NCBI GenBank assembly: GCA_049287045.1
Contig: JBAQFC010000008.1
Span: 22,198 to 86,197 of the forward strand
Direction of reading: 5' to 3'
DNA length: 64,000 nucleotides
Origin: Minisyncoccia bacterium
Lineage (GTDB): Bacteria; Patescibacteriota; Minisyncoccia; Phycocordibacterales; UBA9973
Part shown: positions 12,882 through 64,000 of the stretch, piece after piece
Numbering within the stretch: position 1 is the first letter of the stretch
How the letters are laid out: the number at the start of each line of letters is the position of its first letter
The notes under the pieces: generated by a model
Seen by the model: the letters and a program-made list of their open reading frames with translations, nothing else
Told to the model about the DNA's origin: nothing
Databases searched by the model: none
Position numbers and translations under genes: made by a program

Positions 12882-12912
12882 AGCTTCTATTATAACATAA
12901 TTTGAATTATTT

Positions 12913-17512: not shown

Positions 17513-17562
17513 TAAATTGAATTATAGCAAAAATTAAAAATAGGTGAAAGTAAAAATCCCCT

Positions 17563-17596
17563 CCAACCAAAGTCGGAGAGGATTTTTACTTTCTGC
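17563..17596. terminator. Rho-independent terminator downstream of dnaK
   Basis: aaaatcccctcc...ggagaggattttt stem-loop followed by a T-run on the minus strand. Confidence 0.5.
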
Positions 17597-33397: not shown

Positions 33398-34651
33398 TTA
33401 TATAGGCAGATTAGAAGGAGGAGCTGCCTCTTTTGATTCAATACGTTCAAGAGTAGGAACCTGTAATATCTGACCTGGAAAATGAAAAATAGTAGCCAAC
33501 TCTTCAGTGTTAAGAACCGAAATATTTGGATGACTATATTTTGGAAAAAATAATGAAACAGGAAAAGGAATTGGAATATGGTGTATAAGAGGTGGGTAAA
33601 AGAAAGCTCTCTCTCTGTACTCTTCAAGCATTCTGTCTTTAAATCTAAAAAGAGAAGTAGAAGTGTATTGCCAAAAATGACTGAAACTTGTTGTATTCAC
33701 TCTCTTAAAACTATTCAAGGATGCTGACTCATACTGGCGGAAAATTAAACGAAGATTACGCTTGGTATTGTTTTGAAAATTTTCTTTCTTTGCCACATAA
33801 CAAACTCTTATTCCTGTATCGAACCCAACCTTGGCGCTTTTTTTGGTCATACCTTCCAAGACAGGATCCAACCATTTTGGTAATAATTTAAATGAAGATT
33901 CACCCTCTCCTTTTGTATATTTTTCGGTAAGCTCTTTCATTACATGTTCTGATTCTTCAAGCCATCCATGATGTTTTGATCTTGTGCCATGAGTATGAAA
34001 TTTTTTTTGTGAAGGTGCTATAACTATTTGCATCCATACTTGTTCACCTTTTTCGATTGAACCAAAAAGTTCTATAACCGGAGAAATCGGATCAACCTTG
34101 AATTCTTCTTTAGGGTCTTTATCTAATCCAAAATCAACATAAGTTTTAATAGGATATGCATCAGGTTTTGCTAAAGTAAATTCACACCCCCAAAGATCCC
34201 ATCCGCTCTGAGGTGATATTTTATTAACAGCTAAAGTATAATCCTCTGCTACTTTTACTTGTGCTTGAGGATACTGCGCATACAATTGAGTCTCGATTAA
34301 ACTCTTCATTCGGGATGGAGCTCGAAGATAAAAATGAACCTGACCTCCAATAGAAACAATCTCAAGTGAAAACCACAACTGAACTGCTCCAAGCCAGTAT
34401 GTTTCAAGAAATCCTTTATTACTTAAAGAATAAAGTCCGTTAGTAAAAAATAATTCCATTGCCTTAGGTGATCTTAAAACATCTCGTGGAGGAACTATTT
34501 CAAGCAGAACCCAATCAATACCAGCAATGAAATCATGTTCTACATAGTGATGCCAAAAAAGCCATGCAAAATGAGCAAGGAGTGCGAACCCAACAAAGGG
34601 CCAAACTGCGGAAAAAATATACGAAGAAAAATAAACTATTGAATCAACCAT
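33398..34651 (-). CDS. hypothetical membrane protein
   Basis: 417 aa with two N-terminal TM helices and a Trp-rich soluble domain; no family assigned. Confidence 0.4.
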   Translation of the reverse strand: MVDSIVYFSSYIFSAVWPFVGFALLAHFAWLFWHHYVEHDFIAGIDWVLLEIVPPRDVLRSPKAMELFFTNGLYSLSNKGFLETYWLGAVQLWFSLEIVSIGGQVHFYLRAPSRMKSLIETQLYAQYPQAQVKVAEDYTLAVNKISPQSGWDLWGCEFTLAKPDAYPIKTYVDFGLDKDPKEEFKVDPISPVIELFGSIEKGEQVWMQIVIAPSQKKFHTHGTRSKHHGWLEESEHVMKELTEKYTKGEGESSFKLLPKWLDPVLEGMTKKSAKVGFDTGIRVCYVAKKENFQNNTKRNLRLIFRQYESASLNSFKRVNTTSFSHFWQYTSTSLFRFKDRMLEEYRERAFFYPPLIHHIPIPFPVSLFFPKYSHPNISVLNTEELATIFHFPGQILQVPTLERIESKEAAPPSNLPI

Positions 34652-46874: not shown

Positions 46875-47420
46875 TGCTACTTGTATTTTTGTTTCAGGAG
46901 GTCTTACAACAATAAGTCTTTTCTTCCAACCCTTCATAAAATCTGTAACTGATACTTTTCTGATACCATCGTGTTTTCCTGGATCGTTGTAATAAATAAA
47001 ATCTTCGTCAAAACCAGTTACGACAACGAGGTGACCATAAGGACTTTTTGGATTAAAACCACGATGAATTGATGCCACAGCAGGACCCTCTTTTATAATA
47101 TCTTGAAACTCAATAAAGGCACTCTTTTTGTCTAGTTTTGAAAAATCAAAGGTTCTACCGACTAGGCCGTGTTTTACAGCCAAGGCTGCAAGCCCGTCAT
47201 GTTTCCACCCTACGTTCTTTTGGTAAGCACCTCCAGCAATACCTTCCTCAAGAACCTTTTGAACTGAGGTTGTGTTGGGTTTATAGTATTCAATTATCAT
47301 TGCAAGGTCTGCTACTCCGCAACCTTTTTGCTTCCATGCAACAGATGAAATATCACTTATTTGGGAATATAAGGGTACGTTATAAGGCATTGTAGGCGGT
47401 ATCGTTACTGGTATTATCAT
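46863..47420 (-). CDS. papain-like cysteine peptidase (C39-like domain)
   Basis: YSQ...GCGVADLAM (Cys) and GHLVVVTGFDEDFIYYNDP (His region) are typical of Peptidase_C39_2. Confidence 0.55.
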   Translation of the reverse strand: MIIPVTIPPTMPYNVPLYSQISDISSVAWKQKGCGVADLAMIIEYYKPNTTSVQKVLEEGIAGGAYQKNVGWKHDGLAALAVKHGLVGRTFDFSKLDKKSAFIEFQDIIKEGPAVASIHRGFNPKSPYGHLVVVTGFDEDFIYYNDPGKHDGIRKVSVTDFMKGWKKRLIVVRPPETKIQVALAR

Positions 47421-47457: not shown

Positions 47458-47826
47458 TTATAGAGTTTTATTATTCTGTTCTCTGTAGGAGTATATAATT
47501 AAAAAAACAGCGGTTGCCAAGATAGATACATCTCGAAAAATAAGATCTAACAGTTTGTAATTAAAAATCAAGATACCAACAAGCATGAACGCAGCAATTA
47601 TACTTGGAATTAAAATTTTTCTACCAATAACAAGCCATAAACCAACCGTGATTTGCAAAATTGCCCAGCCTGTAATTAGAAATCCTTGAGGTAATAAATT
47701 CGTCATAAAAGGAGGAAAAAATCCAAGCCAAAAAGAAGGATTAATCAAACTAGCAATAGCTGCATAAATAAAAGGAAAAGCTAAACCAATCCTAGCTATT
47801 AAAATTTCTATTTTATTAGTATTCAT
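47458..47826 (-). CDS. DoxX-like small membrane protein
   Basis: Four TM helices, 122 aa. Confidence 0.35.
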   Translation of the reverse strand: MNTNKIEILIARIGLAFPFIYAAIASLINPSFWLGFFPPFMTNLLPQGFLITGWAILQITVGLWLVIGRKILIPSIIAAFMLVGILIFNYKLLDLIFRDVSILATAVFLIIYSYREQNNKTL

Positions 47827-47939: not shown

Positions 47940-49307
47940 TTATTTAATACAAGACCTCACCCCTTCTTTTTTGATGATATCCCTAACACTAACCTGTTTG
48001 TAAACTGATTCCATCGCCATACGTTGGGTATTTCCATCTTGGTAACTTGTCTCTTTTTGTAAAATATCAAACTTTGTATCATATTCAGCCTGTGGAAGTA
48101 GCCCCATAAAATATATGGTAAAAGGGTGATCTTTTATTAGGTTAGATGCATTATCCTCGTCATATATGTAGGCAACTGAATTATTAGAGCTTTTTTTCCA
48201 TGCTATACCACCAAGAGTATCTTTGGTGCCCGCAGGAGAGGTCAACAACATAGAATAGTGAGCTCCTGAATTTTTTACAGGAAGATCTAACCCCGTTGGG
48301 TCACTGGTATCAAGGGAATCTCCCACAAAAACTCCCCACTGGTGTGCAGTTTCATGTAGTAATGTTAGCATCCCGCAATTATTTCCTATTGTTAATAGAC
48401 CTAAATTGTTCTTTTCCTGAAGATAACAATTTTTAGTAGAATCGACATCAAGTAAATCATCTAAATAATTTATACCCTCTAATTTCCTGTTGCTTCCATA
48501 AGTTGAAGAATTATTGGAGTACGAACTAGAAAGTCCTATACCACCAATATTGTTTATTGTATTAAAATGATAATTACTTCCGGTCGTATTTGTTGTATTT
48601 GTAAAAATTGAAATAAAATCATAATTATCACCGTGTGTTTCATAAAATTTTTTTGTTATTAATGCTATATTGAAATTTTCAGGAGTTATTCCAAGGATTT
48701 TTCCATCCATAAAAACTGCGTCATCAGGTATAGACATTATGGCAAGTCCTCCAGTTGCAAAACCAAAAGACCAAGGAAAACGATTTTTCACATATGCAAG
48801 TTCATCTGTGTATCTCTGTTTTTGCGAAAGAAAAGTCGGATCATTAATGTCTCTAGCAACAAAAATCAACGCCATTGTGAAACTTTTTTGATTACAATCA
48901 TATAAGGAAGTGGGCGTATTATCAGGAATAGTAGAAAGTGTGGGTGTGTAAATAGTTACAGAGTTAGGAGTAGAGATATTTGTATTAGTAGGGTTAGGTG
49001 TAAGTGAGAAATTCATCATTGCTTTAGTATTTTTACCAATAAAACCATCAGCTTTTAACCCATGGTCATTTTGCCATTTTTTTATAACAATAATTGTTTT
49101 TGGACCCAATTTACCATCAACTATTAACCCTAGATTTAGAGTTGTATTTAAAAATCTTTGAAGCTCCATAACTGCTTCACCTCTACTCCCATTTCTAAGA
49201 GTTGTGGCACCAAAATTGTAGATTGTTGTTGCCTTAATTGTAAATGGAATGATTAAGAAACCAAAAAATAAAAATATTAGAACAACTTTATATTTTTTCA
49301 TTTTCAT
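47940..49307 (-). CDS. secreted zinc metallopeptidase-like protein with peptidoglycan-binding domain
   Basis: Signal peptide, PG_binding_1-like segment (LRNGSRGEAVMELQRFLN...ADGFIGKNT), and HETAHQWG (HExxH) near the C-terminus. Confidence 0.5.
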   Translation of the reverse strand: MKMKKYKVVLIFLFFGFLIIPFTIKATTIYNFGATTLRNGSRGEAVMELQRFLNTTLNLGLIVDGKLGPKTIIVIKKWQNDHGLKADGFIGKNTKAMMNFSLTPNPTNTNISTPNSVTIYTPTLSTIPDNTPTSLYDCNQKSFTMALIFVARDINDPTFLSQKQRYTDELAYVKNRFPWSFGFATGGLAIMSIPDDAVFMDGKILGITPENFNIALITKKFYETHGDNYDFISIFTNTTNTTGSNYHFNTINNIGGIGLSSSYSNNSSTYGSNRKLEGINYLDDLLDVDSTKNCYLQEKNNLGLLTIGNNCGMLTLLHETAHQWGVFVGDSLDTSDPTGLDLPVKNSGAHYSMLLTSPAGTKDTLGGIAWKKSSNNSVAYIYDEDNASNLIKDHPFTIYFMGLLPQAEYDTKFDILQKETSYQDGNTQRMAMESVYKQVSVRDIIKKEGVRSCIK

Positions 49308-54555: not shown

Positions 54556-55923
54556 CTAATTATACCACTTTTTTAGTTTGGTCAAAATTTGAGACAAAGC
54601 CTTTAGTGTGTAGTCAATATCTGCTTTAGTTGTCTGTCTGCCAAGAGAAAATCTGATTGATCCATCAATTTCTTTATTAACCAATAACTCCCCTAACTGT
54701 GCTTCACGGATAGCTTGTATTACATGAGAAGCCTTTTCATCACCTGATTTACAAGCACTTTTGACAGAGGCCATAATTCCATGAGCAGAAAGTTCGATTA
54801 CCAAAAGATCACTTGGAATTTTTGGAATCGTGATGTTTATATTGTTAGGTAGTCTGTTTTTTAGGTCACCATTTAAAATTACTTTCCCCGAAACCAGGTT
54901 TAGGGGAAAATCCCCTAAACCTGGTTTCTGGAAATGTGTAGTGTCAAGGCTTAACCTTGACATTTTTTTAATAAAATAATCACGAAGTTTAATTAAACGT
55001 TTTACTTCTTTGTCTTTTATTTGTTCAACAGTTTTTAAAGCTTTTGCTAGTCCGACAATCCCGACAATATTTTCTGTCCCTGGTCTTAATCCAAATTCTT
55101 GGTCACCACCAAATATAATATTAGTGATAGGTGTCATTCTTTTTATATACAAAACCCCAACACCACTAGGCCCATAAATTTTTGATCCATTAAATGAAAA
55201 CAAATCAACACCAAGTTTTTCAACATTGATTGATAAATAGTTTATTGCTTGTGTGGCGTCGGTATGAAAAACTGGAAAAATACCAAGGTCGGACCTTTCT
55301 AAATTCTTAAGGTCCGACCTTTTTGCAACTTTATTTTTTCGATAATGACGAATCTCTTTTGCAATTTCTCTTATTGGTTGAATCGTACCAATCTCATTAT
55401 TTGCGTACATTACAGAAACCAAAATCGTATTTGATTTTAATGCTTTTTTAATTTTCTCGGGATCTACTATTCCATTTTCTTCTACTGGCACATAAGTCAC
55501 TTCTATTTGTTTTGTTTTTTCTAAATGTTTACACACTTCCAGAACGGAAGCATGTTCTATATTCGTGGTGATTATATGAGGAATAATTTTTCGAGTATTT
55601 TTTGAAATGCCTTGCGCAGGCTGACGAGCCGAGCAGAGCAATTTGCCAGCAGGCAAATATGTGTGCATTTGAAAAAATGACTCGTAAAATTTATTAATCA
55701 CACCAAGTAGAGCCAAATTATTACTCTCTGTTGCACCAGAGGTAAAAACCACTTCATTAGAGTGTGCACCTAAAATCTTGGCAATTTCTTCTCTTACTTC
55801 ATTCAGTTGTTTTTTCGCTTTCACACCAAAATCGTGAATTGCTCCAGGATTAGCAGGATTAGCTGAAGCACCACTGGCATAATCCATATATATATTCTTT
55901 GATTTTTTGATTGATTTAACCAT
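54556..55923 (-). CDS. cysteine desulfurase (NifS/IscS family) carrying two in-frame repeat-element insertions
   Basis: PLP-lysine region FNGSKIYGPSGVGVLY and the active-site Cys loop SVKSACKSG. Two extra segments, encoded by the repeats at 55600-55677 and 54889-54929, interrupt otherwise IscS-like sequence. Confidence 0.8.
   Translation of the reverse strand: MVKSIKKSKNIYMDYASGASANPANPGAIHDFGVKAKKQLNEVREEIAKILGAHSNEVVFTSGATESNNLALLGVINKFYESFFQMHTYLPAGKLLCSARQPAQGISKNTRKIIPHIITTNIEHASVLEVCKHLEKTKQIEVTYVPVEENGIVDPEKIKKALKSNTILVSVMYANNEIGTIQPIREIAKEIRHYRKNKVAKRSDLKNLERSDLGIFPVFHTDATQAINYLSINVEKLGVDLFSFNGSKIYGPSGVGVLYIKRMTPITNIIFGGDQEFGLRPGTENIVGIVGLAKALKTVEQIKDKEVKRLIKLRDYFIKKMSRLSLDTTHFQKPGLGDFPLNLVSGKVILNGDLKNRLPNNINITIPKIPSDLLVIELSAHGIMASVKSACKSGDEKASHVIQAIREAQLGELLVNKEIDGSIRFSLGRQTTKADIDYTLKALSQILTKLKKWYN
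54889..54929. repeat. perfect 18-bp-stem hairpin element in frame inside the cysteine desulfurase gene
   Basis: gaaaccaggtttagggg-aaaa-tcccctaaacctggtttc encodes QKPGLGDFPLNLVSG; a second small hairpin, caagg-cttaa-ccttg, follows at 54945-54959. Confidence 0.55.
55600..55677. repeat. 75-nt structured repeat, copy A (in frame within the cysteine desulfurase gene)
   Basis: aaatgccttgcgcaggctgacgagccgagcagagcaa + 18-nt hairpin + atgtgtgcattt, bounded by the inverted ends tttgaaatgc/gcatttgaaa. 49 of ~75 nt are identical to copy B at 58720-58795. Confidence 0.6.
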
Positions 55924-55947
55924 TAAAATAGTATATATTGAAAAGGC

Positions 55948-56409
55948 ATGAATATAAAGCTCGAGATCGCTTTTTTTATTTTAACTGGAATTTCCGTCAT
56001 TGTTGGCGTTATTTGGGTTATAAAAACAGAGAAAAGATTGAAAAGATTTTTTGTTGGTAAAAAAGCAAAAGATTTAGAGGATACTATCATCGCGCTAGAA
56101 AGTGACCTTGCTAACTTAATAAAAATAAAAGAGGAACACGAAAAAGAAATTATTGAGATAAATGCAAAATTAAGAAAAAGTATTCGTGGACTCGAGACTG
56201 TTCGTTTCAATCCTTTTCCAGATCAAGGTAGCAACCAAAGTTTCGCAATAGGATTATTAAATGAAGATGGAGATGGTGTCGTCCTTTCTAGTTTGTATTC
56301 CCGTGAGAGAATGAGTGTTTTTGCTAAGCCTATTAAAAAAGGAAAATCAGAATACGAATTAACAAACGAAGAAAAAGAAATACTAAAAAAAGCTGAAGTA
56401 AAACAATAA
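55948..56409 (+). CDS. hypothetical membrane-anchored coiled-coil protein
   Basis: N-terminal TM, a coiled coil, and a conserved-looking C-terminal domain (RFNPFPDQGSNQSFAIGLL...). Its stop overlaps the infB start. Confidence 0.4.
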   Translation: MNIKLEIAFFILTGISVIVGVIWVIKTEKRLKRFFVGKKAKDLEDTIIALESDLANLIKIKEEHEKEIIEINAKLRKSIRGLETVRFNPFPDQGSNQSFAIGLLNEDGDGVVLSSLYSRERMSVFAKPIKKGKSEYELTNEEKEILKKAEVKQ

Positions 56410-57905
56410 TGAAAAATAAAACAGAAAACATAATAGAACGTCCACCGATAGTAGTAGTCATGGGTCATATCGACCATGGTAAATCTACGTTGCTGGACTA
56501 TATCAGAAAGACAAATATTGTCGACCGTGAAGCTGGAGGAATTACTCAGCATATTTCTGCATATGAAGTTATTCACAAAGACGAACATGGCAAAGATAAA
56601 AAAATTACTTTCTTAGATACTCCAGGACACGAAGCTTTTTCAAAAATGCGTGAACGTGGAGCAGAGGCAGCTGATATAGCTATTCTAGTTGTTTCAGCAG
56701 AAGACGGAGTAAAGCCACAAACCATAGAAGCTTATAAAACAATCCTTGAAAGTAAGATTCCTTTTATTGTAGCTATTAATAAAATAGACCGCCCAGCTGC
56801 TAATATCGAAAAGACAAAAATGGAACTGGCTGAAAATGAAATATATGTTGAAGGATACGGAGGCAAAACACCTGTCGCTGAGATTTCTGCAAAAGTTGGT
56901 ACTGGAGTAGATAATCTTTTAACTCTAATTCTCCTTATTGCTGAGATGGAAGAATTTACAGCAAATACGGAGGAAGGAGCAACGGGATATGTTATCGAAG
57001 CAAACTTAGATCCAAAGAGAGGAATCCAAGCTACTTTAATTATTAAAAATGGAAAACTTAAAAATGGTATGACTGTGGCAGTAGAAGATGCTTTATGTTC
57101 TACCCGTATCATGGAAAACTTTTTAGGAAAAATGGTTAAGGATGCTAGTTTTTCCTCCCCTGTTCGACTAGTTGGCTTTAGTAAAGTTCCAAAAGTTGGA
57201 GCAATGTTTAAAGCTTTCGAAAAGAAAGGTGATGCTGAAGAATACGCAAAAGAAATATTAAATAAAAAAATAACCAAAAATGAAAAGAGAGAGATAAGTG
57301 ATAAAAAAATGATTCCAATAGTTTTGCGTGCAGATGTCATGGGATCTATTGAAGCAATCGAAAAAGAAATAAAAAAAATACAAAGTGAAGGTGCAGAATT
57401 CAAAATAATCCAGAAAGGTGTCGGACCTATTACTGAGTCCGATATTAAATCATCCCAGGGTTCAGAAATCATTGTAATCGGGTTTAATGTAAAAGCAGAC
57501 AGAGGTGCCAATGACTTAGCTATAAAGCAAAACATTCCAATTCTATTTTTCGATATCATTTACAAAATGACAGAATGGTTGACAGAAGAAATGGAAAAGA
57601 GACGCCCTAGAGTAGAAACAATCGAAGTTACCGGACGAGCTAAGATAATCAAAGCTTTCAGCCGTACCAAGGAACGCCAAGTTGTCGGAGGAAAAGTTAC
57701 TGAAGGAAATATCTCTCTTGGTGAAACAGTTAAAATAATTCGTCGTGAGTTTGAAATAGGTAAAGGTAGAATCGTAAACCTAGAAAAATTCAAATCAAAA
57801 ACAAACAAAGTAGAAGAAGGTTCAGAATTTGGTACTATGATCGAATCAAAGATTGAGATAGTAGCAGGAGACATTCTTGAGTCGTTTTCAATAACACAAA
57901 AATAA
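56409..57905 (+). CDS. infB: translation initiation factor IF-2 (short form without the long N-terminal region)
   Basis: G domain ([24 protein letters not shown]) plus the C-terminal beta-barrel domains; 498 aa. Confidence 0.9.
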
Positions 57906-57906
57906 T

Positions 57907-58230
57907 ATGATCCCACGAAACGAAAAAATAGCACAATTTGTAAAAGAGCTTGCTGCTCAGTTTTTGGCACGCGAGAACAATAATACCTCACTCATAACTG
58001 TTACTTCATGCAACACCTCCCCTGACATGAAACGTGCAACTATATTTATCACTGTGCTCCCTGAATCAAAAGAGAAGCTGGCATTGGAATTCGCAAAACG
58101 CAGAAGAGCAGACCTACGAGACTTCTTGAAAAAGAATATGGAAGTAAAAACAATCCCATTTATTGATATTGAGATAGATAAAGGAGAAAAAAATAGACAA
58201 AGAATTGACGAACTGCTTCGAGAAAAGTAA
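57907..58230 (+). CDS. rbfA: ribosome-binding factor A
   Basis: 107-aa KH-like protein directly downstream of infB (conserved infB-rbfA order). Confidence 0.65.
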   Translation: MIPRNEKIAQFVKELAAQFLARENNNTSLITVTSCNTSPDMKRATIFITVLPESKEKLALEFAKRRRADLRDFLKKNMEVKTIPFIDIEIDKGEKNRQRIDELLREK

Positions 58231-58258
58231 GATAGATAGGCGTTGGTTGTGCGCCTAC

Positions 58259-58330
58259 GGCCTGGTAGCCAAGTGGTAAGGCATTCCTCTGCAAAAGGAA
58301 TATACGGCGGTTCGATTCCGCCCCAGGCCT
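58259..58330 (+). tRNA. tRNA-Cys (anticodon GCA)
   Basis: Acceptor GGCCTGG/CCAGGCC, anticodon stem TTCCT/AGGAA with loop CTGCAAA, T arm GGCGG-TTCGATT-CCGCC. Confidence 0.8.
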
Positions 58331-58360
58331 CAAGTGTAATTTGAAAAAAGAATCATATTT

Positions 58361-58430
58361 GCCCGGATGGATAAAAATCAAACTGCTTTGATTTTTATCC
58401 GAACAAAGTGAGGAGGCCGTCATCCGGGCA
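58361..58430 (+). ncRNA. tRNA-like structured element sharing the tRNA-Leu acceptor stem (pseudo-tRNA or small RNA)
   Basis: 5' gcccggatgg and 3' catccgggca duplicate the acceptor/D start of tRNA-Leu(TAA) located 48 nt downstream. The interior is replaced by a perfect 14-bp hairpin, ggataaaaatcaaa-ctgc-tttgatttttatcc, plus aaagtgaggaggccgt. Confidence 0.35.
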
Positions 58431-58477
58431 ATGGTTTTGTTTACAAAATTTAAAATATGAAATATATTTTAAAAATT

Positions 58478-58559
58478 GCCCGGATGGCGGAATTGGTATA
58501 CGCGCACGACTTAAAATCGTGTCTCGCAAGGGATGTGGGTTCGACCCCCACTCCGGGCA
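58478..58559 (+). tRNA. tRNA-Leu (anticodon TAA)
   Basis: Acceptor GCCCGGA/TCCGGGC, anticodon stem CACGA/TCGTG with loop CTTAAAA, long variable arm, T arm GTGGG-TTCGACC-CCCAC. Confidence 0.8.
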
Positions 58560-58624
58560 CAAGACATATTGAAAATAAAATAAATATGTTAAAGTAGAAA
58601 GTAAGTTTTTATATTTGTTTTTAT

Positions 58625-58697
58625 GCACCCATAACTCAGCTGGTAGAGTAGCTCCCTCTTAAGGAGAATGTCGGAGGTTCGATCCCTCCTGGGTGCA
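58625..58697 (+). tRNA. tRNA-Lys (anticodon CTT)
   Basis: Acceptor GCACCCA/TGGGTGC, anticodon loop CTCTTAA, T arm GGAGG-TTCGATC-CCTCC. Confidence 0.7.
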
Positions 58698-58719
58698 CAC
58701 ACGAGAGAAAGAAAATGTT

Positions 58720-58795
58720 TTTAAAATGCCTTGCGCAGGCTGACGAGCCGAGCAGAGCAAAAATTCAGCAGAATTTTATGTGTGCATTTTAAAAA
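58720..58795. repeat. 75-nt structured repeat, copy B (intergenic, between tRNA-Lys and tRNA-Leu)
   Basis: Identical 37-nt and 12-nt blocks to copy A. The internal hairpin aaaattc-agca-gaatttt differs from copy A (atttgcc-agca-ggcaaat) by compensatory changes that keep a 7-bp stem and the AGCA loop. Perfect terminal inverted ends ttttaaaatgc/gcattttaaaa. Confidence 0.6.
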
Positions 58796-58862
58796 TTTTT
58801 TCTTACTCTCGTGTTTGATTTATTATCAAAAGAAAGCTATTCTATATAGTAATCGAAAAAAT

Positions 58863-58944
58863 GCCGGGATGGCGGAATTGGTATACGCGCTAGTCTTAGG
58901 AACTAGTGGGGCAACCCTTGGGAGTTCGAGTCTCCCTCCCGGCA
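58863..58944 (+). tRNA. tRNA-Leu (anticodon TAG)
   Basis: Acceptor GCCGGGA/TCCCGGC, anticodon stem CTAGT/ACTAG with loop CTTAGGA (G37), long variable arm, T arm. Confidence 0.75.
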
Positions 58945-58987
58945 CAATGTTTATAAGCTTTAATAGGCTTGACTTTTAAATTTATAT

Positions 58988-59752
58988 ATGGTATACTTTA
59001 TGTATATGAATAAAACAACTAACAACTTAATAATAAAGACTTTAGGAGTATTAGGTATATTTGTTTTCAGTATCCTAGTTTTGCCTGTAAAAGCTAATGC
59101 TTATGGTGGCTTTTCTTATGACGGCGGAGCTGGTAGTTACTACAATGGATATTCTTATGTAGGTGATATTAATACACCCACAACAGCAACACCCACGCCA
59201 ACAGTCAATTTAGTTCCAACCATAAATTCAATTAGTCCTGATTCTGCAGTTTCAAGTAAAGCTGCTACTGTTGTAACAATCATAGGAACCAACTTTTCAT
59301 TTGGATCAGTTGCTAAATGGAACGGTGAAGAAAGAGCAACAACTTTTGTAAACTCAAATAAAATTACAACAACCCTTACCCCATCCGACATGTCTGGATT
59401 AGGTGCTTACACAATAACAGTTTTTAATCCTCTACCAGGAGGTGGAATGTCAAATTCCGCTATATTCCAACTAAACAAAGCTTCTGTCGCAAAAGCGACA
59501 ACTACAACAACCGCAACGACTGTAACAACAGCAAAGGTGGTAAAGAAAACAACTGTTGCTAAAAATACAACTAAAACAACAGATTCTAGTAGTAGTCTTA
59601 TGGCCAACGCACTGTTTGGAACAAATGGTTTAATGCCTTCAAGTTTAATCGGATGGCTTTTGCTTTTAACTCTAGTTCTGCTAATAGTAATATTTGCTAG
59701 AAAAGCCTTTGTTAAAGAAGACAAAAAACATACTCCTTTAAAACACGCTTAA
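58988..59752 (+). CDS. secreted surface protein (IPT/TIG-like beta-sandwich, Thr-rich stalk, C-terminal TM anchor)
   Basis: Signal peptide, the segment PTINSISPDSAVSSKAATVVTIIGTNFSFGSVAKWNGEE (IPT/TIG-like), T-rich linker, C-terminal LIGWLLLLTLVLLIVIFARK. Confidence 0.45.
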   Translation: MVYFMYMNKTTNNLIIKTLGVLGIFVFSILVLPVKANAYGGFSYDGGAGSYYNGYSYVGDINTPTTATPTPTVNLVPTINSISPDSAVSSKAATVVTIIGTNFSFGSVAKWNGEERATTFVNSNKITTTLTPSDMSGLGAYTITVFNPLPGGGMSNSAIFQLNKASVAKATTTTTATTVTTAKVVKKTTVAKNTTKTTDSSSSLMANALFGTNGLMPSSLIGWLLLLTLVLLIVIFARKAFVKEDKKHTPLKHA

Positions 59753-59770
59753 TAACACTACAAATAACAC

Positions 59771-59802
59771 AAAAAAGTCAGCCCAACAGGGTTGACTTTT
59801 TT
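59771..59802 (+). terminator. Rho-independent terminator
   Basis: gtcagccc-aaca-gggttgac followed by TTTTTTG. Confidence 0.55.
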
Positions 59803-59859
59803 GCTTATATATGCTATACTTTATAAATAATAAGTTGTTTGAAAACAGGTTAGAAAAAT

Positions 59860-59921
59860 AGTTATGTTCAGCAAAGATGCTCAGTCCCCTTTTACACTGA
59901 GCCGTTTCGCTGAACATAACT
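59860..59921 (+). promoter_or_regulatory. 62-nt extended imperfect hairpin in the 5' leader of the SPFH operon
   Basis: Outer 13-bp stem agttatgttcagc/gctgaacataact and inner 7-bp stem gctcagt/actgagc, 40 nt upstream of the AGGAG RBS and ATG at 59962. Confidence 0.35.
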
Positions 59922-59961
59922 ATTAATTAAACTAATCTAAAATAAAAAGGAGAAACAAAAA

Positions 59962-61038
59962 ATGACAGCACTAATTACATTTGCCATCTTAGCGATATTA
60001 TCACTAGGTTGGTTAGGCTTTACTTTGCTTTTAAAGCAATTGGGAAAAAATGACACTCACTTTACAGAACTTACAAAAGAAACTGGTAAAGGTGTTGTAA
60101 AGGGAAAGAACGTTGTAAACTTATTATTTAATTCCAAAAATGGTTTCTATGACAAAGAAGGAAACTGGAAGGAATGCAAAGACAACGAAGGAAACTTTAT
60201 ATGCAGACCACAAAATTTAGGTTCTTTGTTTGAAAAACTTGGCATAACCTTCTTTGGGTTAAGTCCAATTAATGAAATCCTTAAATTTAAAGTTTATCAA
60301 AATGATGAACAATTTGAAGAACATACATCTTTCAAGCATCTCTATGACTTTAGAATCATAGTAAAGGAAGTTGAATTATTGGGTGGTGAAATTAAAATAG
60401 ATTTAGATCTAAAGTTTAGGTTTAAGGTAATGAATATTACCAAACTGCTCTTTCTCTCACAACCTGATGGAATCACAATCTACAAAGCTTCAGCTGACAT
60501 AGAAACAGCTGTCAACAATTTTGTGAGAAATAAAGAATGGGATGCGTTTGAAAAAGCAGACAAAACAAGTAAAGATTCTGATTTTATCAGACAAATTACT
60601 GAATCCATTAATGAAACCACATTAAGAACCCTAGGAATAGAGGTTGATAGTATGAAACTTGCAAACTATGGCATAAGCAAAGGTCCATCAAATGAAGAAG
60701 TAGATAAATCGCTTTCTGAAAATTTAATAGCGGAAAACGAAGGAAAAGCTCTGATTACGAGATCAGAGACCGCAGCCAAGGTTTTGGAAATTAAAACCAA
60801 TTCTGAAGGCAAGGCCTTAATCGACAGCGCTAAATTTGCAAAAGATGCACACATACTTACGACAGAAGCTGAAGCACACCGCTTTGGTGAGATGAGTAAA
60901 GTTGCAAAGAAAAATCCTGGGATAATCCCGTTTATGAATTTGGAACAAGTGAAAGAGACACAGATACGTGTCCTTGGAGCTAATGTAATATCCACCATTA
61001 ATGTTGATGGTGATGAAACTAAAAAGGAGGGAAAATAA
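59962..61038 (+). CDS. SPFH/Band-7 (flotillin/HflK-like) domain membrane protein
   Basis: N-terminal TM, a central SPFH-like region, and C-terminal Ala/Glu/Lys-rich helical repeats (AENEGKALITRSETAAKVLEI...). Confidence 0.5.
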   Translation: MTALITFAILAILSLGWLGFTLLLKQLGKNDTHFTELTKETGKGVVKGKNVVNLLFNSKNGFYDKEGNWKECKDNEGNFICRPQNLGSLFEKLGITFFGLSPINEILKFKVYQNDEQFEEHTSFKHLYDFRIIVKEVELLGGEIKIDLDLKFRFKVMNITKLLFLSQPDGITIYKASADIETAVNNFVRNKEWDAFEKADKTSKDSDFIRQITESINETTLRTLGIEVDSMKLANYGISKGPSNEEVDKSLSENLIAENEGKALITRSETAAKVLEIKTNSEGKALIDSAKFAKDAHILTTEAEAHRFGEMSKVAKKNPGIIPFMNLEQVKETQIRVLGANVISTINVDGDETKKEGK

Positions 61039-61655
61039 TGGAAACATTTTTAGAAATTGCCTTAGGCATAGTAGCTTTTGTTGTATTAATTTTTGTTATC
61101 TCGTTAATTAAAAAAGGTGGCAAGGTTAAAGTAAAAGTAGAATTGGGATGGTTCAAAAAAAATGGACTGTTTATAATATTCTACATACTAGGAATAATCT
61201 TCATGCAAATGCAGTGCCCTCTACTTTGGCACGTGTGGTATGATTTTCCTTTATTCTTTTGGATTACCAATGCAATTGTTTTAATTGTATTGATCTTTTT
61301 TAGAGATTTTTTGTTTTTTGCGGTTTTGATTATTATTGTATTGATTGGTTTGAATTACACAATACCCTTTTTTGCACACAGCAGTCATGGTACACCAACA
61401 ATACAAACAATAGAAAAACAAGAAGCAAAAAAAGTATTTTATAAGTTTTCTGCAAATGTAAAATGTATTTCAGTTTATTTAAAAAGTGAAACTGCATTTT
61501 ACCCTAAGGGTGGAAAAATAATTATAAAATCTCCATCAGGGACTACATGGGAATTAAAACCAGGTGAAGTCCTAGATATGGGTCGCCAACTTGCAGGCTG
61601 GTTTTCGGTCTGCCAAGGTGAACCAAGTAATTATGGAGTAGAAGTATTGAATTAA
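61038..61655 (+). CDS. polytopic membrane protein translationally coupled to the SPFH gene (possible NfeD-like partner)
   Basis: ATGA start/stop overlap; ~4 TM helices followed by a ~90-aa beta-rich soluble C-terminal domain. Confidence 0.4.
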   Translation: METFLEIALGIVAFVVLIFVISLIKKGGKVKVKVELGWFKKNGLFIIFYILGIIFMQMQCPLLWHVWYDFPLFFWITNAIVLIVLIFFRDFLFFAVLIIIVLIGLNYTIPFFAHSSHGTPTIQTIEKQEAKKVFYKFSANVKCISVYLKSETAFYPKGGKIIIKSPSGTTWELKPGEVLDMGRQLAGWFSVCQGEPSNYGVEVLN

Positions 61656-61685
61656 GGGCATAATATCGCATTGCCCAATGCAAAC

Positions 61686-61720
61686 AAAAAGCCGTTCACA
61701 AATTGTGAACGGCTTTTTTT
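61686..61720. terminator. bidirectional Rho-independent terminator
   Basis: aaaaagccgttcaca-aatt-tgtgaacggcttttt perfect 15-bp stem. Confidence 0.6.
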
Positions 61721-61728
61721 ATTTTAAT

Positions 61729-62097
61729 TTAATTTATCTTCAACTCACCACTCCCTGCCGGAGGATTGTAATTACCTAAATCAACTTTACCTGTACTAGG
61801 ATTGATCTCTGTTGTGGAGATGTTTAGAGTATTCATAACAATTGAAAGAATAGTCCAGACTCCCATCATAATCGTAATCCCTATCAACCCATAAACCATG
61901 TGACTTTTTCCTGTTGTTTTCTTTTCTTCATTGTCTTGATTAGAAATAAAGACAAATACTCCCCAAAGAAAATAAGCTAAAGCTAAAGCAAAAAGTAAAA
62001 CGATTAGCGGATTGATAATCAGGTTGTTGACGTTCTGGATAAATTTATCCAGACTCTCACCAGCGGCATAAGCGACATTTGTAAAGAAAAAATTCAT
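61729..62097 (-). CDS. VirB2/TrbC-like pilin-family small membrane protein, paralog 1
   Basis: Hydrophobic N-terminus; core PLIVLLFALALAYFLWGV - charged loop (NQDNEEKKTTGKS) - MVYGLIGITIMMGVWTIL; architecture shared with the four paralogs upstream. Confidence 0.4.
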   Translation of the reverse strand: MNFFFTNVAYAAGESLDKFIQNVNNLIINPLIVLLFALALAYFLWGVFVFISNQDNEEKKTTGKSHMVYGLIGITIMMGVWTILSIVMNTLNISTTEINPSTGKVDLGNYNPPAGSGELKIN

Positions 62098-62117
62098 TAA
62101 TTTTTTAAGTAATTAGA

Positions 62118-62480
62118 TTAACAACCGATTGTTCCTGGGATACAAGGAGCAGTAATGCCCTGTGAACCACCACCAACACCGATACCGAAAGTATTAGCGA
62201 TAATACCAACTAGACCCCACATACCAACGATAACTACTAGACCGATAAGACCGTAGATCATTTTATCTCTTCCGGCCGTTTTAGCTTCTTCTTCTTTTGC
62301 AAGAACATAAGAAACAACTCCCCAGATGAAATAAATAACGGCTAGAGTAATAAGAATAGGTACTACAGTGTTAAGAAGACCTCCGATTGTAGTAATGATA
62401 TCACCCACTGTATTTACAGCGAAAGCAAAAGGAGCTAAGACTAAACCAAAAGCGACTAATGGAATTAATTTATTTTTCAT
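62118..62480 (-). CDS. VirB2/TrbC-like pilin-family small membrane protein, paralog 2
   Basis: Sec signal (..APFAFA|VNT); LLNTVVPILITLAVIYFIWGVVSYVLAKEEEAKTAGRDKMIYGLIGLVVIVGMWGLVGIIANTFGIGVGGG parallels the VirB2 mature region. Confidence 0.45.
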   Translation of the reverse strand: MKNKLIPLVAFGLVLAPFAFAVNTVGDIITTIGGLLNTVVPILITLAVIYFIWGVVSYVLAKEEEAKTAGRDKMIYGLIGLVVIVGMWGLVGIIANTFGIGVGGGSQGITAPCIPGTIGC

Positions 62481-62590
62481 ATGATTTTAATTTTTAATTA
62501 ATAATAATTGATAATTTAAAGCGACCTTTTATAACTTTCCTAAATATTAGGGTAATTTAATTATAACAACAAAAACCTCAAAAGCAAATA

Positions 62591-62977
62591 TTAATGGGTC
62601 TGAAGTTGTGGAATGGCATTGTTTATACCAAAAGTATTTCCGATGATAGCCACAAGGCCCCATATCGAAACCATCACGGCCAAAGCAATAAGACCCCATA
62701 TCATAAACTGTCGACCTTTTGCCCTTTTTGACTCTTCTTCAGCGCCCAAAATCACATACTGAACTACTCCCCAAATGAAAGCAGCTACAGCCAAAGCAAA
62801 CACAAGAGGAATAACTGATCTAGATATATTACAAGTAACAAAATTTAATAAATCACCAAATTTAGGATTTGGTACCAAGGTACAACTGGCAACAGTTGTG
62901 GTTTGAGCAAAAGAAACAATCGGTAAAAGAAAGGAAGTGACAAAAATTATAGAAGAAAGTTTTTTAAAATTTTTCAT
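62591..62977 (-). CDS. VirB2/TrbC-like pilin-family small membrane protein, paralog 3
   Basis: Sec signal (..PIVSFA|QTT), two Cys in the mature N-terminus, then the FIWGVVQYV...EEESKRAKGRQFMIWGLIAL...NTFGI core. Confidence 0.45.
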   Translation of the reverse strand: MKNFKKLSSIIFVTSFLLPIVSFAQTTTVASCTLVPNPKFGDLLNFVTCNISRSVIPLVFALAVAAFIWGVVQYVILGAEEESKRAKGRQFMIWGLIALAVMVSIWGLVAIIGNTFGINNAIPQLQTH

Positions 62978-63024
62978 TTGGTTTAATAAAATACTGTTGA
63001 TATAAATTGATTAGCTTATAAAAA

Positions 63025-63399
63025 TTAAAGTGCCAGTATTGTATTCGTTATAATCTGAGCAATTGCCCATGCCCCTAAAAGAATTGCTGCACCTATTACT
63101 GTATAAAGTAAGGATTTTTTGGCTACTTCAATTTCTCCAGGGTTACCACGAGCTTTTACAAAAAGAAAACCACTGTATATTATAGCCAAGGCAATAATAG
63201 GAATACCTATTTTTATAGCTCCTTGAAGAAGAATTTTTATAAAATCATTTAAACTAGTAACACTAATCGGTGGGCAAATTTTACCACCAGCTGGGTCACA
63301 AATTTGAACAGTTCCTTGAGCAAAAACGGTAAAAACTGGAACAAGGAGAATAAAGGCAAATAGGGACAATTTATGTATATTTTTCTTAATAAAATTCAT
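63025..63399 (-). CDS. VirB2/TrbC-like pilin-family small membrane protein, paralog 4
   Basis: Sec signal (..FTVFA|QGT), a CDPAGGKIC pair of Cys, and the same two-helix core. Confidence 0.4.
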   Translation of the reverse strand: MNFIKKNIHKLSLFAFILLVPVFTVFAQGTVQICDPAGGKICPPISVTSLNDFIKILLQGAIKIGIPIIALAIIYSGFLFVKARGNPGEIEVAKKSLLYTVIGAAILLGAWAIAQIITNTILAL

Positions 63400-63418
63400 G
63401 TGTATATTGTAACACTAT

Positions 63419-64000
63419 TTAAAACCCAATCCAAGAACCTTCATAACCTAGAGTTGTTAATATTAGCTCAATAATCAACCAGGAACCAGCGGCCAAGGCA
63501 ATACCAATAACTGCATTAGAAAATATCTTTTTGGCTTGTTCAGACTTGTGTGCATTACCACCCGATGTCACCATTTGGAACCCAGCGTAGACAAACATCA
63601 GAGCTGCAATAGGTACAGCCAAAGCAAATAAAACAAACTTAATAACATTGTTTACAAGTTGCATTAATTCATTAAATCCGCAGCCATTGGGACAGGCAGG
63701 GATTAACCCGCCAGCTGGACTGGAAGTATCTCGGACAAAAGAACCAGTGGTTGTGCTATTAGAACCCATACTTGTACTATTGGTAGAGTTAGCGTTAAAT
63801 TCTGTTACGGTCGACGCTGTGGGAACACAAGCACTTATTACTGTATCCCATGTAAAATTAGCAGGACATGTTTGAACTGTGTTTGCATTAAAATCTGTTA
63901 CAGTCGCGGCTGTGGGGACACAAGCACTTATTACTGTATCCCATGTAAAATTAGCAGGACATGTTTGTGATGTGTTTTGTGCGAAAGAAAAAGATGGAAT
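63419..64000 (-). CDS. larger secreted protein with N-terminal Cys-containing 25-aa tandem repeats and C-terminal VirB2/TrbC-like two-TM domain (5' end beyond window)
   Basis: The frame stays open upstream of the Met at 63769 through 63770-64000, encoding ...TCPANFTWDTVISACVPTA(S/A)TVTEFNA... repeats. The C-terminal half matches paralogs 1-4. Confidence 0.4.
   Translation of the reverse strand: MPSFSFAQNTSQTCPANFTWDTVISACVPTAATVTDFNANTVQTCPANFTWDTVISACVPTASTVTEFNANSTNSTSMGSNSTTTGSFVRDTSSPAGGLIPACPNGCGFNELMQLVNNVIKFVLFALAVPIAALMFVYAGFQMVTSGGNAHKSEQAKKIFSNAVIGIALAAGSWLIIELILTTLGYEGSWIGF
63790..63941. repeat. tandem 75-bp direct repeat (two near-identical units) encoding 25-aa Cys-containing protein repeats
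   Basis: Units ...ctgttacggtcgacgctgtgggaacacaagcacttattactgtatcccatgtaaaattagcaggacatgtttg... are repeated with ~90% identity. A third partial unit appears to start at the window end. Confidence 0.6.

What the first reader, a model, noticed from the sequence alone, without database searches (positions are those of the whole stretch)
61729..64000. Tandem array of five paralogous secreted two-TM proteins with VirB2/TrbC (T4SS pilin)-like architecture
Five consecutive minus-strand genes (116-128 aa, short spacers) share the following layout:
- a Sec signal peptide;
- a variable mature N-terminus, often with a Cys pair;
- the motif LxN(V/F)VxPxxxxLAxxYFxWGV;
- a short acidic/basic loop, then a Gly/Ile-rich second helix ending in NTFGI.
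This mirrors mature VirB2/TrbC conjugative pilins, e.g. Agrobacterium VirB2 ...MVNNICTFILGPFGQSLAVLGIVAIGISWMFGRASLGLVAGVVGGIVIMFGA.... Tandem families of divergent VirB2 paralogs are known in Anaplasma/Ehrlichia and in the Bartonella Trw system (trwL copies), where they are thought to give surface variation for host-cell interaction. In a putative episymbiotic reduced-genome bacterium such an array could form a variable contact pilus. No VirB4/B6/B8-B11 genes are in the window; the only other T4SS-like gene is the coupling-protein-like ATPase 45 kb away.
Basis: partly seen in the sequence, partly recalled or inferred. Interest (0 to 1): 0.8.

Follow-up and report, generated by a model that had tools for sequence, protein, structure and literature searches.

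The report
Five-gene T4SS-pilin array, Patescibacteria
Five neighbouring small membrane-protein genes belong to the known "type IV secretion pilin" family that is very common in ultrasmall Patescibacteria. Such tandem pilin arrays are already published, so this is an ordinary instance with a few informative details.

Summary
The five minus-strand genes are real paralogues. All five pass the Pfam PF18895 (T4SS_pilin) gathering cut-off, and no other ORF in the window matches the family.

Three details need correcting:
- The fifth gene runs off the window end. It is at least 193 aa, not 116.
- The first gene has only a conserved 11-residue N-terminus, not a canonical Sec signal peptide.
- The quoted motif fits only three of the five genes.

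The organism is a Nomurabacteria-like member of class Paceibacteria. Tandem VirB2-like pilin arrays in Patescibacteria were described in 2025 (441 arrays). An equivalent array is essential in Southlakia epibionticum.

New details found here:
- The same five genes, in the same order, occur in 64 of 80 related species genomes.
- Each gene is under purifying selection (dN/dS 0-0.13). They are old, non-redundant subunits, not Bartonella/Anaplasma-style variants.
- Only the first gene carries a hypervariable N-terminal head, which is swapped between strains about 96% identical.
- No virB4 lies within 10 kb of the array. In a relative, virB4 sits elsewhere with its own pilin.

Verdict: a new member of a known kind, of modest interest.

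The parts
61729..62097 (-). g1: last gene of the array, 122 aa. It is the most conserved paralogue and lacks a canonical signal peptide (11-residue N-terminus MNFFFTNVAYA). It has two TM helices and a long C-terminal tail.
   Evidence: PF18895 33.2 bits. NF045849 E 6e-8. Identical protein in strain L002, dS 0.013. Orthologues in 80 of 80 related loci, median 61% identity. N-terminus conserved.
62118..62480 (-). g2: 120 aa, with a Sec-type signal peptide (MKNKLIPLVAFGLVLAPFAFA|V), two TM helices and a C-terminal Cys pair.
   Evidence: PF18895 34.9 bits. dN/dS 0.13 vs L002. Position-specific orthologues.
62591..62977 (-). g3: 128 aa, with a signal peptide, a Cys pair in the mature N-terminus and two TM helices. 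About half of related genomes have two or three fused pilin domains at this position.
   Evidence: PF18895 30.1 bits. dN/dS 0.05. 43 of 83 g3-class ORFs have two domains and one has three.
63025..63399 (-). g4: 124 aa, with a signal peptide, the Cys pair CDPAGGKIC and two TM helices. It is the paralogue closest to TrbC/VirB2.
   Evidence: PF18895 32.3 bits; TrbC PF04956 23.8 bits, below the 27.9 cut-off. The orthologue in L081 scores 30.1 bits, above the cut-off. AF2 helical hairpin with pLDDT about 90.
63419..64000 (-). g5: first gene of the array, cut at its 5' end by the window edge (at least 193 aa). It comprises the end of a signal peptide, a variable Cys-rich head, a Thr/Ser-rich linker, the Cys pair CPNGC and a C-terminal pilin domain.
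   Evidence: Frame open to the window end. PF18895 38-40 bits. The head is non-homologous to the allele in strains about 96% identical. Orthologues have 0-545 aa ahead of the pilin domain, with fn3-like, CHB_HEX_C_1 and InlB-B-repeat-like domains.
63788..63967 (-). 93-bp tandem repeat (1.9 copies) inside g5, encoding two copies of the module TCPANFTWDTVISACVPTA.
   Evidence: Tandem Repeats Finder score 311, 91% matches. Translation. Weak CBM_14 match of 22.6 bits, with no single stretch passing on its own.
61686..61718 (.). Bidirectional intrinsic-terminator hairpin (15-bp stem) between the stop of g1 and the convergent gene 61038-61655. It marks the 3' end of the array's transcription unit.
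   Evidence: Terminator-like site found on both strands.

Best explanation
The five genes encode members of the PF18895 'T4SS_pilin' family, the VirB2-like pilins of the Patescibacteria type IV secretion system. The genome is a Nomurabacteria-like member of class Paceibacteria.

Shown:
- Family membership of all five genes.
- The 2-TM hairpin architecture.
- Co-orientation with short spacers, and a terminator after the last gene.
- The five paralogues are ancient. Each has its own orthologue at the same position in related species, and each is under purifying selection.

Inferred mechanism:
- The proteins enter the cytoplasmic membrane with both ends outside and the charged loop in the cytoplasm. 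g2-g5 use Sec and signal peptidase; g1 uses its short N-terminus.
- They wait there as a membrane pool.
- A T4SS core encoded elsewhere (VirB4, TrsD, VirB3/PrgI) extracts and assembles them into a short pilus or conduit towards the host cell.
- Because all five are kept in fixed order, they most likely play different roles. g1 is the best conserved and a candidate major subunit; the others would be minor, initiating or tip subunits.
- g5 carries a modular, fast-swapping extracellular head and is the candidate adhesin pilin that sets host contact specificity.
For: Family membership:
- All five pass the PF18895 gathering cut-off.
- They give significant but sub-cut-off hits to the Mycoplasma ICE 'pilin-like conjugal transfer protein' NF045849.
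- TrbC/VirB2 is the runner-up family for g4 and g5. A g4 orthologue passes the TrbC cut-off.
- The family is huge: 47,263 clusters at 50% identity with E<=1e-3.

Conservation:
- 80 related genomes all carry the array, 65 with five and 14 with six pilin ORFs.
- 64 of 80 have the order g5-g4-g3-g2-g1. Orthologues are 50-61% identical; paralogues are 19-45% identical.
- Between strains, dN/dS is 0-0.13 for the pilin genes, against 0.04 for IF-2 and 0.25-0.27 for the two downstream genes.

The g5 head:
- It differs completely between the window and strain L002.
- It ranges from 0 to 545 aa in orthologues, with fn3-like, chitobiase-C and InlB-like domains.

Link to a T4SS:
- A related Nomurabacteria genome carrying the same array has VirB4, TrsD, VirB3 and a further PF18895 pilin elsewhere (Table S3 of PMC12102498).
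- In Southlakia epibionticum the pilin genes sit inside the T4SS cluster and are essential (PMC10633639; PMC12857230).
Against: - No filament made of PF18895 proteins has been demonstrated. The family name rests on architecture and on gene neighbourhood in other lineages.
- In this lineage the array is not next to virB4. No VirB4-sized conserved neighbour lies within 10 kb in 80 loci, and there are no T4SS core genes in the 64-kb window.
- Direct similarity to solved or classical VirB2 is not detectable. hhalign of the family against A. tumefaciens VirB2 gives probability 0.9%. Profile searches of PDB sequences return only TM noise.
- TrbC hits at E<=0.01 occur in only 14 of 108 family members, barely above other TM families.
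- Whether this particular genome has a virB4 could not be checked.
Confidence: 0.6

Rival explanations
1. A variation array like Bartonella trwL or Anaplasma virB2 paralogues: redundant, recently duplicated pilin copies that diversify to vary the surface or to match different hosts.
For: - The genes are tandem, sequence-divergent paralogues.
- The literature offers this analogy for Patescibacteria arrays (PMC12102498).
- The g5 head is hypervariable and swapped between strains.
Against: - The five copies are not recent or redundant. Each has a position-specific orthologue in 64 of 80 species genomes, in the same order.
- dN/dS between strains is 0-0.13 for all five pilin domains.
- g1 is identical between strains.
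- Variation is confined to one module of one gene.
Confidence: 0.1
2. Small two-TM envelope proteins that work independently of a T4SS. One possibility is a membrane complex with the solute-binding-protein-like gene that always precedes them, serving uptake or envelope organisation. In that case 'pilin' is a misnomer in this lineage.
For: - The array is unlinked from virB4.
- An SBP_bac_1-like gene lies directly upstream and co-oriented in 78 of 80 loci.
- There is no significant similarity to classical VirB2.
- The fold is too simple to be diagnostic.
Against: - Same Pfam family as the virB4-linked, essential pilins of Saccharimonadia, and as the virB4-adjacent pilin of a Nomurabacteria genome.
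- A g4 orthologue passes the TrbC/VirB2 cut-off.
- GyrA and a methyltransferase are just as conserved nearby, so the SBP linkage may be inherited synteny within one clade.
- No ABC permease or ATPase lies next to the SBP.
Confidence: 0.2
3. Holins, bacteriocin/immunity peptides or other phage- or toxin-related small membrane proteins.
For: Small size, two TM helices and signal-like N-termini. The only family hit is a weak one, a bacteriocin-like leader at E 0.29 for g3.
Against: - No PHROG family matches at E<=0.01.
- No holin or bacteriocin family appears among the Pfam or NCBIfam hits.
- The context is chromosomal housekeeping, conserved across 80 species.
Confidence: 0.02

Closest known systems
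Pfam PF18895 T4SS_pilin arrays of Patescibacteria (Quinonero-Coronel et al. 2025, PMC12102498: 441 arrays of 2-11 genes in 383 assemblies)
   Same: - Same family; all five genes are above the gathering score.
- Same tandem arrangement.
- Same low identity between copies: the paper reports an average of 25%, and here it is 19-45%.
- Same phylum, and a T4CP located far away.
   Different: - The paper says arrays are most abundant in Microgenomatia and Saccharimonadia. This one is in a Nomurabacteria-like Paceibacteria.
- It is not near virB4.
- For the related genome GW2011_GWE1_32_28, the orthologous array (UR25_C0001G0063-0067) is not among that genome's rows in the paper's Table S3. Only a virB4-adjacent pilin is listed.
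Essential pilin series in the T4SS cluster of Southlakia epibionticum ML1 (Wang et al. 2023, PMC10633639; six VirB2-like pilins according to PMC12857230)
   Same: [quoted passage not shown]
- No relaxase context.
- The coupling protein lies elsewhere.
   Different: - In ML1 the pilins lie inside the T4SS gene cluster and are experimentally essential.
- Here the array sits between an SBP-like gene and a Band_7/TIG block, at least 10 kb from any virB4, and nothing is tested.
- The class differs: Saccharimonadia vs Paceibacteria.
VirB2/TrbC conjugative pilins (Pfam PF04956; e.g. Agrobacterium tumefaciens VirB2)
   Same: - Leader peptide, two hydrophobic helices and a short charged loop, in about 70-90 mature residues.
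- TrbC is the runner-up Pfam family for g4 and g5.
- A g4 orthologue passes the TrbC cut-off.
   Different: - All five window proteins are below the TrbC cut-off, with a maximum of 23.8 vs 27.9 bits.
- hhalign against VirB2 is not significant.
- The host is monoderm, so no outer-membrane core is expected.
- No adjacent virB1/B3/B4, unlike the Ti plasmid.
- Cyclisation is unknown.
Bartonella Trw trwL and Anaplasma/Ehrlichia virB2 paralogue arrays
   Same: Tandem, divergent VirB2-type paralogues in a host-dependent bacterium.
   Different: - Those arrays are interpreted as variants for surface variation.
- Here each copy is a conserved orthologue under purifying selection. Only the g5 head varies.
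- This comparison rests on the literature summary in PMC12102498, not on sequences analysed here.
NCBIfam NF045849, Mbov_0395 family pilin-like conjugal transfer protein of Mycoplasma ICEs
   Same: Significant alignment over nearly the whole 80-position model for g1, g2 and g4 (E 1e-8 to 2e-7). It is a small 2-TM protein of a monoderm T4SS.
   Different: Scores of 19-34 bits are below the equivalog cut-off of 40, so the window genes are not members. The Mycoplasma protein is encoded on a mobile element, not in a chromosomal five-gene array.

Membership tests
Pfam PF18895 T4SS_pilin | Whole-protein score at or above the curated gathering cut-off (26.6 bits) | tested here: met
   g1 33.2, g2 34.9, g3 30.1, g4 32.3 and g5 38.4-39.8 bits. 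All 108 aligned homologues also match.
Pfam PF18895 T4SS_pilin | About 70-residue helical hairpin: two hydrophobic helices joined by a short charged loop | tested here: met
   Hydropathy segments in all five. AF2 model of g4: helices 50-82 and 87-123, pLDDT about 90.
VirB2/TrbC (Pfam PF04956) | Score at or above the gathering cut-off (27.9 bits) | tested here: not met
   g4 23.8, g5 19.0-19.5 and g1 17.4 bits; g2 and g3 have no hit. The g4 orthologue of L081 does pass at 30.1 bits. Only 14 of 108 family members hit TrbC at E<=0.01.
VirB2/TrbC (Pfam PF04956) | Detectable homology to a classical or solved VirB2-type pilin | tested here: not met
   hhalign of A3 vs A. tumefaciens VirB2: probability 0.9%. 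hmmsearch of PDB sequences with A2 and A3: only TM noise, best E 0.05-0.23.
VirB2/TrbC (Pfam PF04956) | Fold match to conjugative pilin structures | tested here: inconclusive
VirB2-like pilin of a T4SS (functional class) | Cleavable N-terminal leader or signal peptide | tested here: inconclusive
   By sequence inspection, g2, g3 and g4 have an n-region, an h-region and an AxA-type site, and g5 shows the end of one. g1 has only a conserved 11-residue N-terminus ending in AYA. No signal-peptide predictor was available and cleavage is untested.
VirB2-like pilin of a T4SS (functional class) | Encoded next to virB4 and other T4SS core genes | tested here: not met
   No VirB3/4/6/8-11 in the window. 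None within 10 kb upstream in the sister strain. No VirB4-sized conserved neighbour in 80 related loci. According to the paper, the pilin is not near virB4 in about 40% of assemblies that have both (813 of 1,948).
VirB2-like pilin of a T4SS (functional class) | A VirB4 ATPase present in the same genome | not testable with these tools
   Only the window and 20 kb of the sister genome could be read. The related genome GW2011_GWE1_32_28 has VirB4, TrsD, VirB3 and a sixth pilin (Tables S1 and S3 of PMC12102498).
VirB2-like pilin of a T4SS (functional class) | Polymerises into an extracellular filament or conduit | not testable with these tools
   This needs microscopy or biochemistry. The papers read here treat the pili as predicted only: 'potential to elaborate conjugative pili' (PMC12857230) and 'predicted pilin subunits' (PMC10633639).
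Variation-type VirB2 arrays (Bartonella trwL, Anaplasma virB2) | Lineage-specific recent duplications and diversifying change among copies | tested here: not met
   Same five orthogroups in the same order in 64 of 80 species genomes. dN/dS 0-0.13.
NCBIfam NF045849 (Mbov_0395 pilin-like conjugal transfer protein) | Score at or above the equivalog cut-off (40 bits) | tested here: not met
   19.4-34.4 bits.

The most novel reading that the evidence does not exclude
The array is a conserved five-subunit heteromeric pilus or conduit module, genetically uncoupled from the T4SS core.
- Four subunits (g1-g4) are invariant structural parts.
- The first subunit (g5) is a modular adhesin pilin. Its extracellular head is exchanged by recombination even between strains about 96% identical.
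- Head modules include Cys-loop, fn3-like, chitobiase-C-like and InlB-like domains.
- On this reading, g5 is the host-range determinant of Nomurabacteria-type episymbionts.
- The always-adjacent solute-binding-protein-like gene may be a functional partner.
Probability: 0.25. Interest if true: 0.6.

Novelty: new member of a known kind. Interest (0 to 1): 0.3.

Why it matters
The Patescibacteria T4SS is essential for epibiotic growth in the one species tested, and what it does is unknown (PMC11665869). This locus does not change that picture. It is one more example of a published feature.

The comparative data do sharpen the question for one large clade:
- The pilin paralogues are fixed, non-redundant parts rather than variants.
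- One of them carries a swappable surface head.
- The array is separate from the virB4 locus, which has a pilin of its own.

Together these give concrete targets for knock-down, localisation and host-range experiments in Paceibacteria: g1 as the candidate major subunit and the g5 head as the candidate adhesin.

Tried and rejected
- Exact 30-mer search for the source genome in genome contigs and metagenome contigs found nothing. Exact-protein look-up of g4 found only a 1.3-kb Logan contig. The region beyond 64000 was therefore read from a sister strain, L002.
- Profile searches of PDB sequences with 5- and 108-sequence alignments returned only GPCR and cytochrome-oxidase TM noise.
- hhalign of the family against a single A. 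tumefaciens VirB2 was not significant. tblastn in plasmids returned only close Rhizobiaceae and Acetobacteraceae VirB2, so no diverse VirB2 profile was built.
- A homologue search with the upstream SBP-like protein, meant to test SBP-pilin linkage outside the clade, listed only orthologues of at least 52% identity (nearly all 62-81%), apparently all from the same clade. The test could not be made.
- The holin/phage hypothesis found no PHROG hits.
- A regex search for the window's Cys-loop head module in 78 g5 orthologues found it in essentially none, and only one under a relaxed pattern. The head is lineage-specific.
- The T4CP-like gene at 15417-17570 was considered as part of the system. It is flanked by DnaK, Fic/RhuM and DnaJ genes. 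The literature reports T4CP homologues as numerous, rarely near virB4, and non-essential in S. epibionticum. It is therefore not counted as a part.
Full report
OBSERVATION

The minus strand of 61729-64000 carries five consecutive ORFs:
- g1: 61729-62097, 122 aa
- g2: 62118-62480, 120 aa
- g3: 62591-62977, 128 aa
- g4: 63025-63399, 124 aa
- g5: from 63419 to beyond the window end

The spacers are 20, 110, 47 and 19 nt. A 15-bp bidirectional terminator hairpin at 61686-61718 follows g1.

In fact the frame stays open to base 64000, which gives at least 193 codons. It begins within a signal peptide (...IPSFSFA|Q). It contains a 93-bp tandem repeat at 63788-63967 that encodes two copies of a Cys-loop module, TCPANFTWDTVISAC.

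The five proteins are 19-45% identical to each other. Each has two hydrophobic helices flanking a short charged loop. g2-g4 have typical Sec-type signal peptides. g1 has only an 11-residue N-terminus, MNFFFTNVAYA, which is conserved in 80 orthologues.

FAMILY

All five pass the gathering cut-off of Pfam PF18895 (T4SS_pilin), scoring 30-40 bits against 26.6. Other family results:
- TrbC/VirB2 (PF04956) is the runner-up family for g4 (23.8 bits) and g5 (19.5 bits). g1 also hits it at 17.4 bits, but among several weak TM-family matches. All are below the 27.9-bit cut-off.
- NCBIfam NF045849, a Mycoplasma ICE pilin-like conjugal transfer protein, matches at E 1e-8 to 6e-4, below its 40-bit cut-off.
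- No PHROG family matches.
- An HMM built from 108 homologues hits only these five among 562 six-frame ORFs of the window, even at E<=10.

The family is enormous: 47,263 clusters at 50% identity reach E<=1e-3. Sources name members 'pilin' or 'TrbC/VIRB2 family protein'.

AlphaFold2 models g4 as a signal helix followed by a helical hairpin with pLDDT about 90. Structure searches cannot tell such a simple fold from thousands of other hairpins. Sequence profiles do not reach solved pilins or A. tumefaciens VirB2.

So membership in PF18895 is established. Homology to classical VirB2 is only weakly supported for the window proteins. A g4 orthologue does pass the TrbC cut-off at 30.1 bits.

ORGANISM AND CONTEXT

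The window is chromosomal housekeeping DNA. It carries ATP synthase, RF, DnaK/DnaJ/GrpE, ribosomal proteins, RpoA, AlaRS, BipA, a Znu ABC transporter, ClpB and IF-2.

No VirB3/4/6/8-11 is present. The only T4SS-like gene is a T4CP-like ATPase at 15417-17570, lying between dnaK and a Fic/RhuM gene. According to PMC12102498 this is the usual situation in Patescibacteria: 5,713 T4CP homologues, of which only 148 lie near virB4.

The closest genome is 'Candidatus Paceibacterota bacterium WB02no17_34_18' (GCA_036169735.1), 95-97% identical in DNA. The remaining relatives are mostly named Candidatus Nomurabacteria or Paceibacterota; Nomurabacteria fall in GTDB class Paceibacteria.

In the sister strain, the genes upstream of g5 are an SBP_bac_1-like protein, a methyltransferase, two unknown proteins and GyrA. 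There is again no T4SS core.

COMPARATIVE ANALYSIS

A scan of species-representative genomes returned 80 loci with a g4 orthologue. The results are:
- **Array size.** All 80 have a same-strand tandem array, with 5 pilin ORFs in 65 loci and 6 in 14.
- **Gene order.** By best match to the window paralogues, 64 of 80 have the order g5-g4-g3-g2-g1. The rest differ by one extra or missing copy.
- **Identity.** Orthologues are 50-61% identical to the window gene at the same position. Paralogues within the window are 19-45% identical.
- **Selection.** Between the window and the sister strain, dN/dS is 0 (g1), 0.13 (g2), 0.05 (g3), 0.07 (g4) and 0.05 (g5 pilin domain). For comparison it is 0.04 for IF-2 and 0.25-0.27 for the two downstream genes.

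The five genes are therefore old, individually maintained and presumably non-redundant. This is the opposite of a recently expanding variation array.

The exception is the mature N-terminus of g5:
- It is non-homologous between the window and the sister strain. Homology resumes at window position 63766.
- dS rises towards it, from 0.013 in g1 to 0.53 in g5. This suggests an imported recombination tract.
- Among orthologues it ranges from 0 to 545 residues.
- Those extensions carry fn3/purple-acid-phosphatase-N-like, chitobiase-C-like and InlB-B-repeat-like domains or Cys-rich repeats.

Other observations from the loci:
- In about half of the relatives, position 3 is a fusion of two or three pilin domains.
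- Conserved neighbours are the SBP-like gene directly upstream (78 of 80), a methyltransferase (72), GyrA (69), and downstream a convergent small TM protein, a Band_7/SPFH protein and a TIG-domain protein.
- No VirB4-sized family is conserved within 10 kb.

LITERATURE

Quinonero-Coronel et al. 2025 (PMC12102498) searched 3,035 Patescibacteria genomes with PF18895, PF04956 and the CONJScan profiles. They report:
- VirB2-like pilins in 1,948 VirB4-containing assemblies, near virB4 in 1,135 of them.
- 441 arrays of 2-11 pilin genes in 383 assemblies, with about 25% identity between copies.

Wang et al. 2023 (PMC10633639) showed that the pilin series within the T4SS cluster of Southlakia epibionticum is essential. 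A 2025 review counts six structurally conserved, sequence-divergent pilins there (PMC12857230). The function of the system remains unknown (PMC11665869).

The paper's Table S3 lists the following for Nomurabacteria GW2011_GWE1_32_28:
- a PF18895 pilin (gene 352)
- VirB4 (gene 354)
- TrsD (gene 355)
- VirB3/PrgI (gene 356)
- four T4CPs

The five-gene array of that genome is not among its rows. The array is UR25_C0001G0063-0067, which is my locus L081. Yet all five ORFs pass the current PF18895 cut-off. The clade therefore has a virB4-linked pilin plus this separate five-gene array. The array may have been under-counted in the survey. I could not determine why.

MECHANISM

Shown:
- Family membership, the 2-TM hairpin and the operon-like arrangement.
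- Ancient position-specific orthology and purifying selection.
- The hypervariable g5 head.
- The absence of adjacent T4SS core genes.

Inferred from what is established for VirB2-type pilins and from the Saccharimonadia data:
- The proteins are inserted into the membrane with both termini outside.
- They are stored there as a pool.
- A VirB4-containing T4SS encoded elsewhere extracts and polymerises them into a pilus or conduit towards the host.
- g1 is the candidate major subunit.
- The g5 head is displayed on the outside as an adhesin.

I put confidence in this mechanism at about 0.6. Family identity alone stands at about 0.95.

Rivals:
- A T4SS-independent membrane complex, possibly with the SBP-like protein: about 0.2.
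- A variation array: about 0.1.
- Holin or bacteriocin: about 0.02.

VERDICT

The feature is a new member of a known, published kind.

The value added here is comparative: fixed five-gene composition, one swappable head, and separation from virB4. Interest is 0.3.

Noticed in passing
window 15417-17570 (-): A T4CP-like ATPase (TrwB_AAD_bind 45.9 bits, DUF87/HerA, T4SS-DNA_transf) with a C-terminal treble-clef zinc finger (zf_Tbcl_2). It sits between dnaK (17624-19540) and a RhuM/Fic gene (14336-15322), with no other T4SS genes nearby.
   Followed up: partly
L002 8670-9956 (just beyond window base 64000); also 78 of 80 related loci: A 428-430 aa SBP_bac_1/SBP_bac_8-like protein always lies directly upstream of the pilin array, co-oriented, and is preceded by a small methyltransferase whose stop overlaps its start. 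It is more conserved than the pilins (most listed orthologues are 62-81% identical) and has no adjacent ABC permease or ATPase. This could be a functional partner or merely inherited synteny.
   Followed up: partly
proteins P0127-P0275; L027 10362-11357, L084 8530-9387, L069 1823-2659: Many database proteins contain 2-16 PF18895 domains in one polypeptide. In about half of the related genomes, the gene at array position 3 is a fusion of two or three pilin domains. I did not check whether the very long ones are true polyproteins or gene-calling or genetic-code artefacts.
   Followed up: partly
window 59962-61038 (+), 61038-61655 (+), 58988-59752 (+): A block convergent to the array is conserved across relatives. 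It comprises a Band_7/SPFH-like membrane protein (weak here at E 0.012, clear in relatives), an overlapping 205-aa polytopic membrane protein of unknown family, and a TIG/IPT-domain surface protein with a C-terminal TM anchor. The first two show the highest dN/dS in the region (0.25-0.27).
   Followed up: partly
window 58259-58945 (+): A cluster of four tRNA genes (Cys-GCA, Leu-TAA, Lys-CTT, Leu-TAG) between IF-2/RbfA and the TIG-domain gene.
   Followed up: no
window about 55900-62000: GC skew changes sign and the cumulative skew reaches its minimum near 56 kb, exactly where gene orientation switches from minus to plus for about 6 kb. No dnaA is present, so this may be only a local strand effect rather than an origin.
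   Followed up: no
window 11538-12959, 37969-39621, 44973-46874, 46863-47420, 47940-49307: Several cell-wall-related secreted proteins: an SLT_2 lytic transglycosylase, two PG_binding_1 proteins, a VanW/PG_binding_4 protein and a Peptidase_C39-like cysteine protease. The transglycosylase could serve a VirB1-like role, but it is not linked to any T4SS gene.
   Followed up: no
PMC12102498 Table S3 vs locus L081 (LBOM01000001.1, genes UR25_C0001G0063-0067): For Nomurabacteria GW2011_GWE1_32_28, the published table lists one virB4-adjacent PF18895 pilin but not the five-gene array. All five array ORFs pass the current PF18895 cut-off, and one passes TrbC. Arrays of this clade may be under-counted in the survey.
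   Followed up: partly
window 25254-26528, 33398-34651, 1690-2400, 30087-30674, 47458-47826 (all -): ORFs of 122-424 aa with no Pfam family at E<=1e-4. The 424-aa one lies next to an FtsA/PilM-like gene (26538-27725).
   Followed up: no
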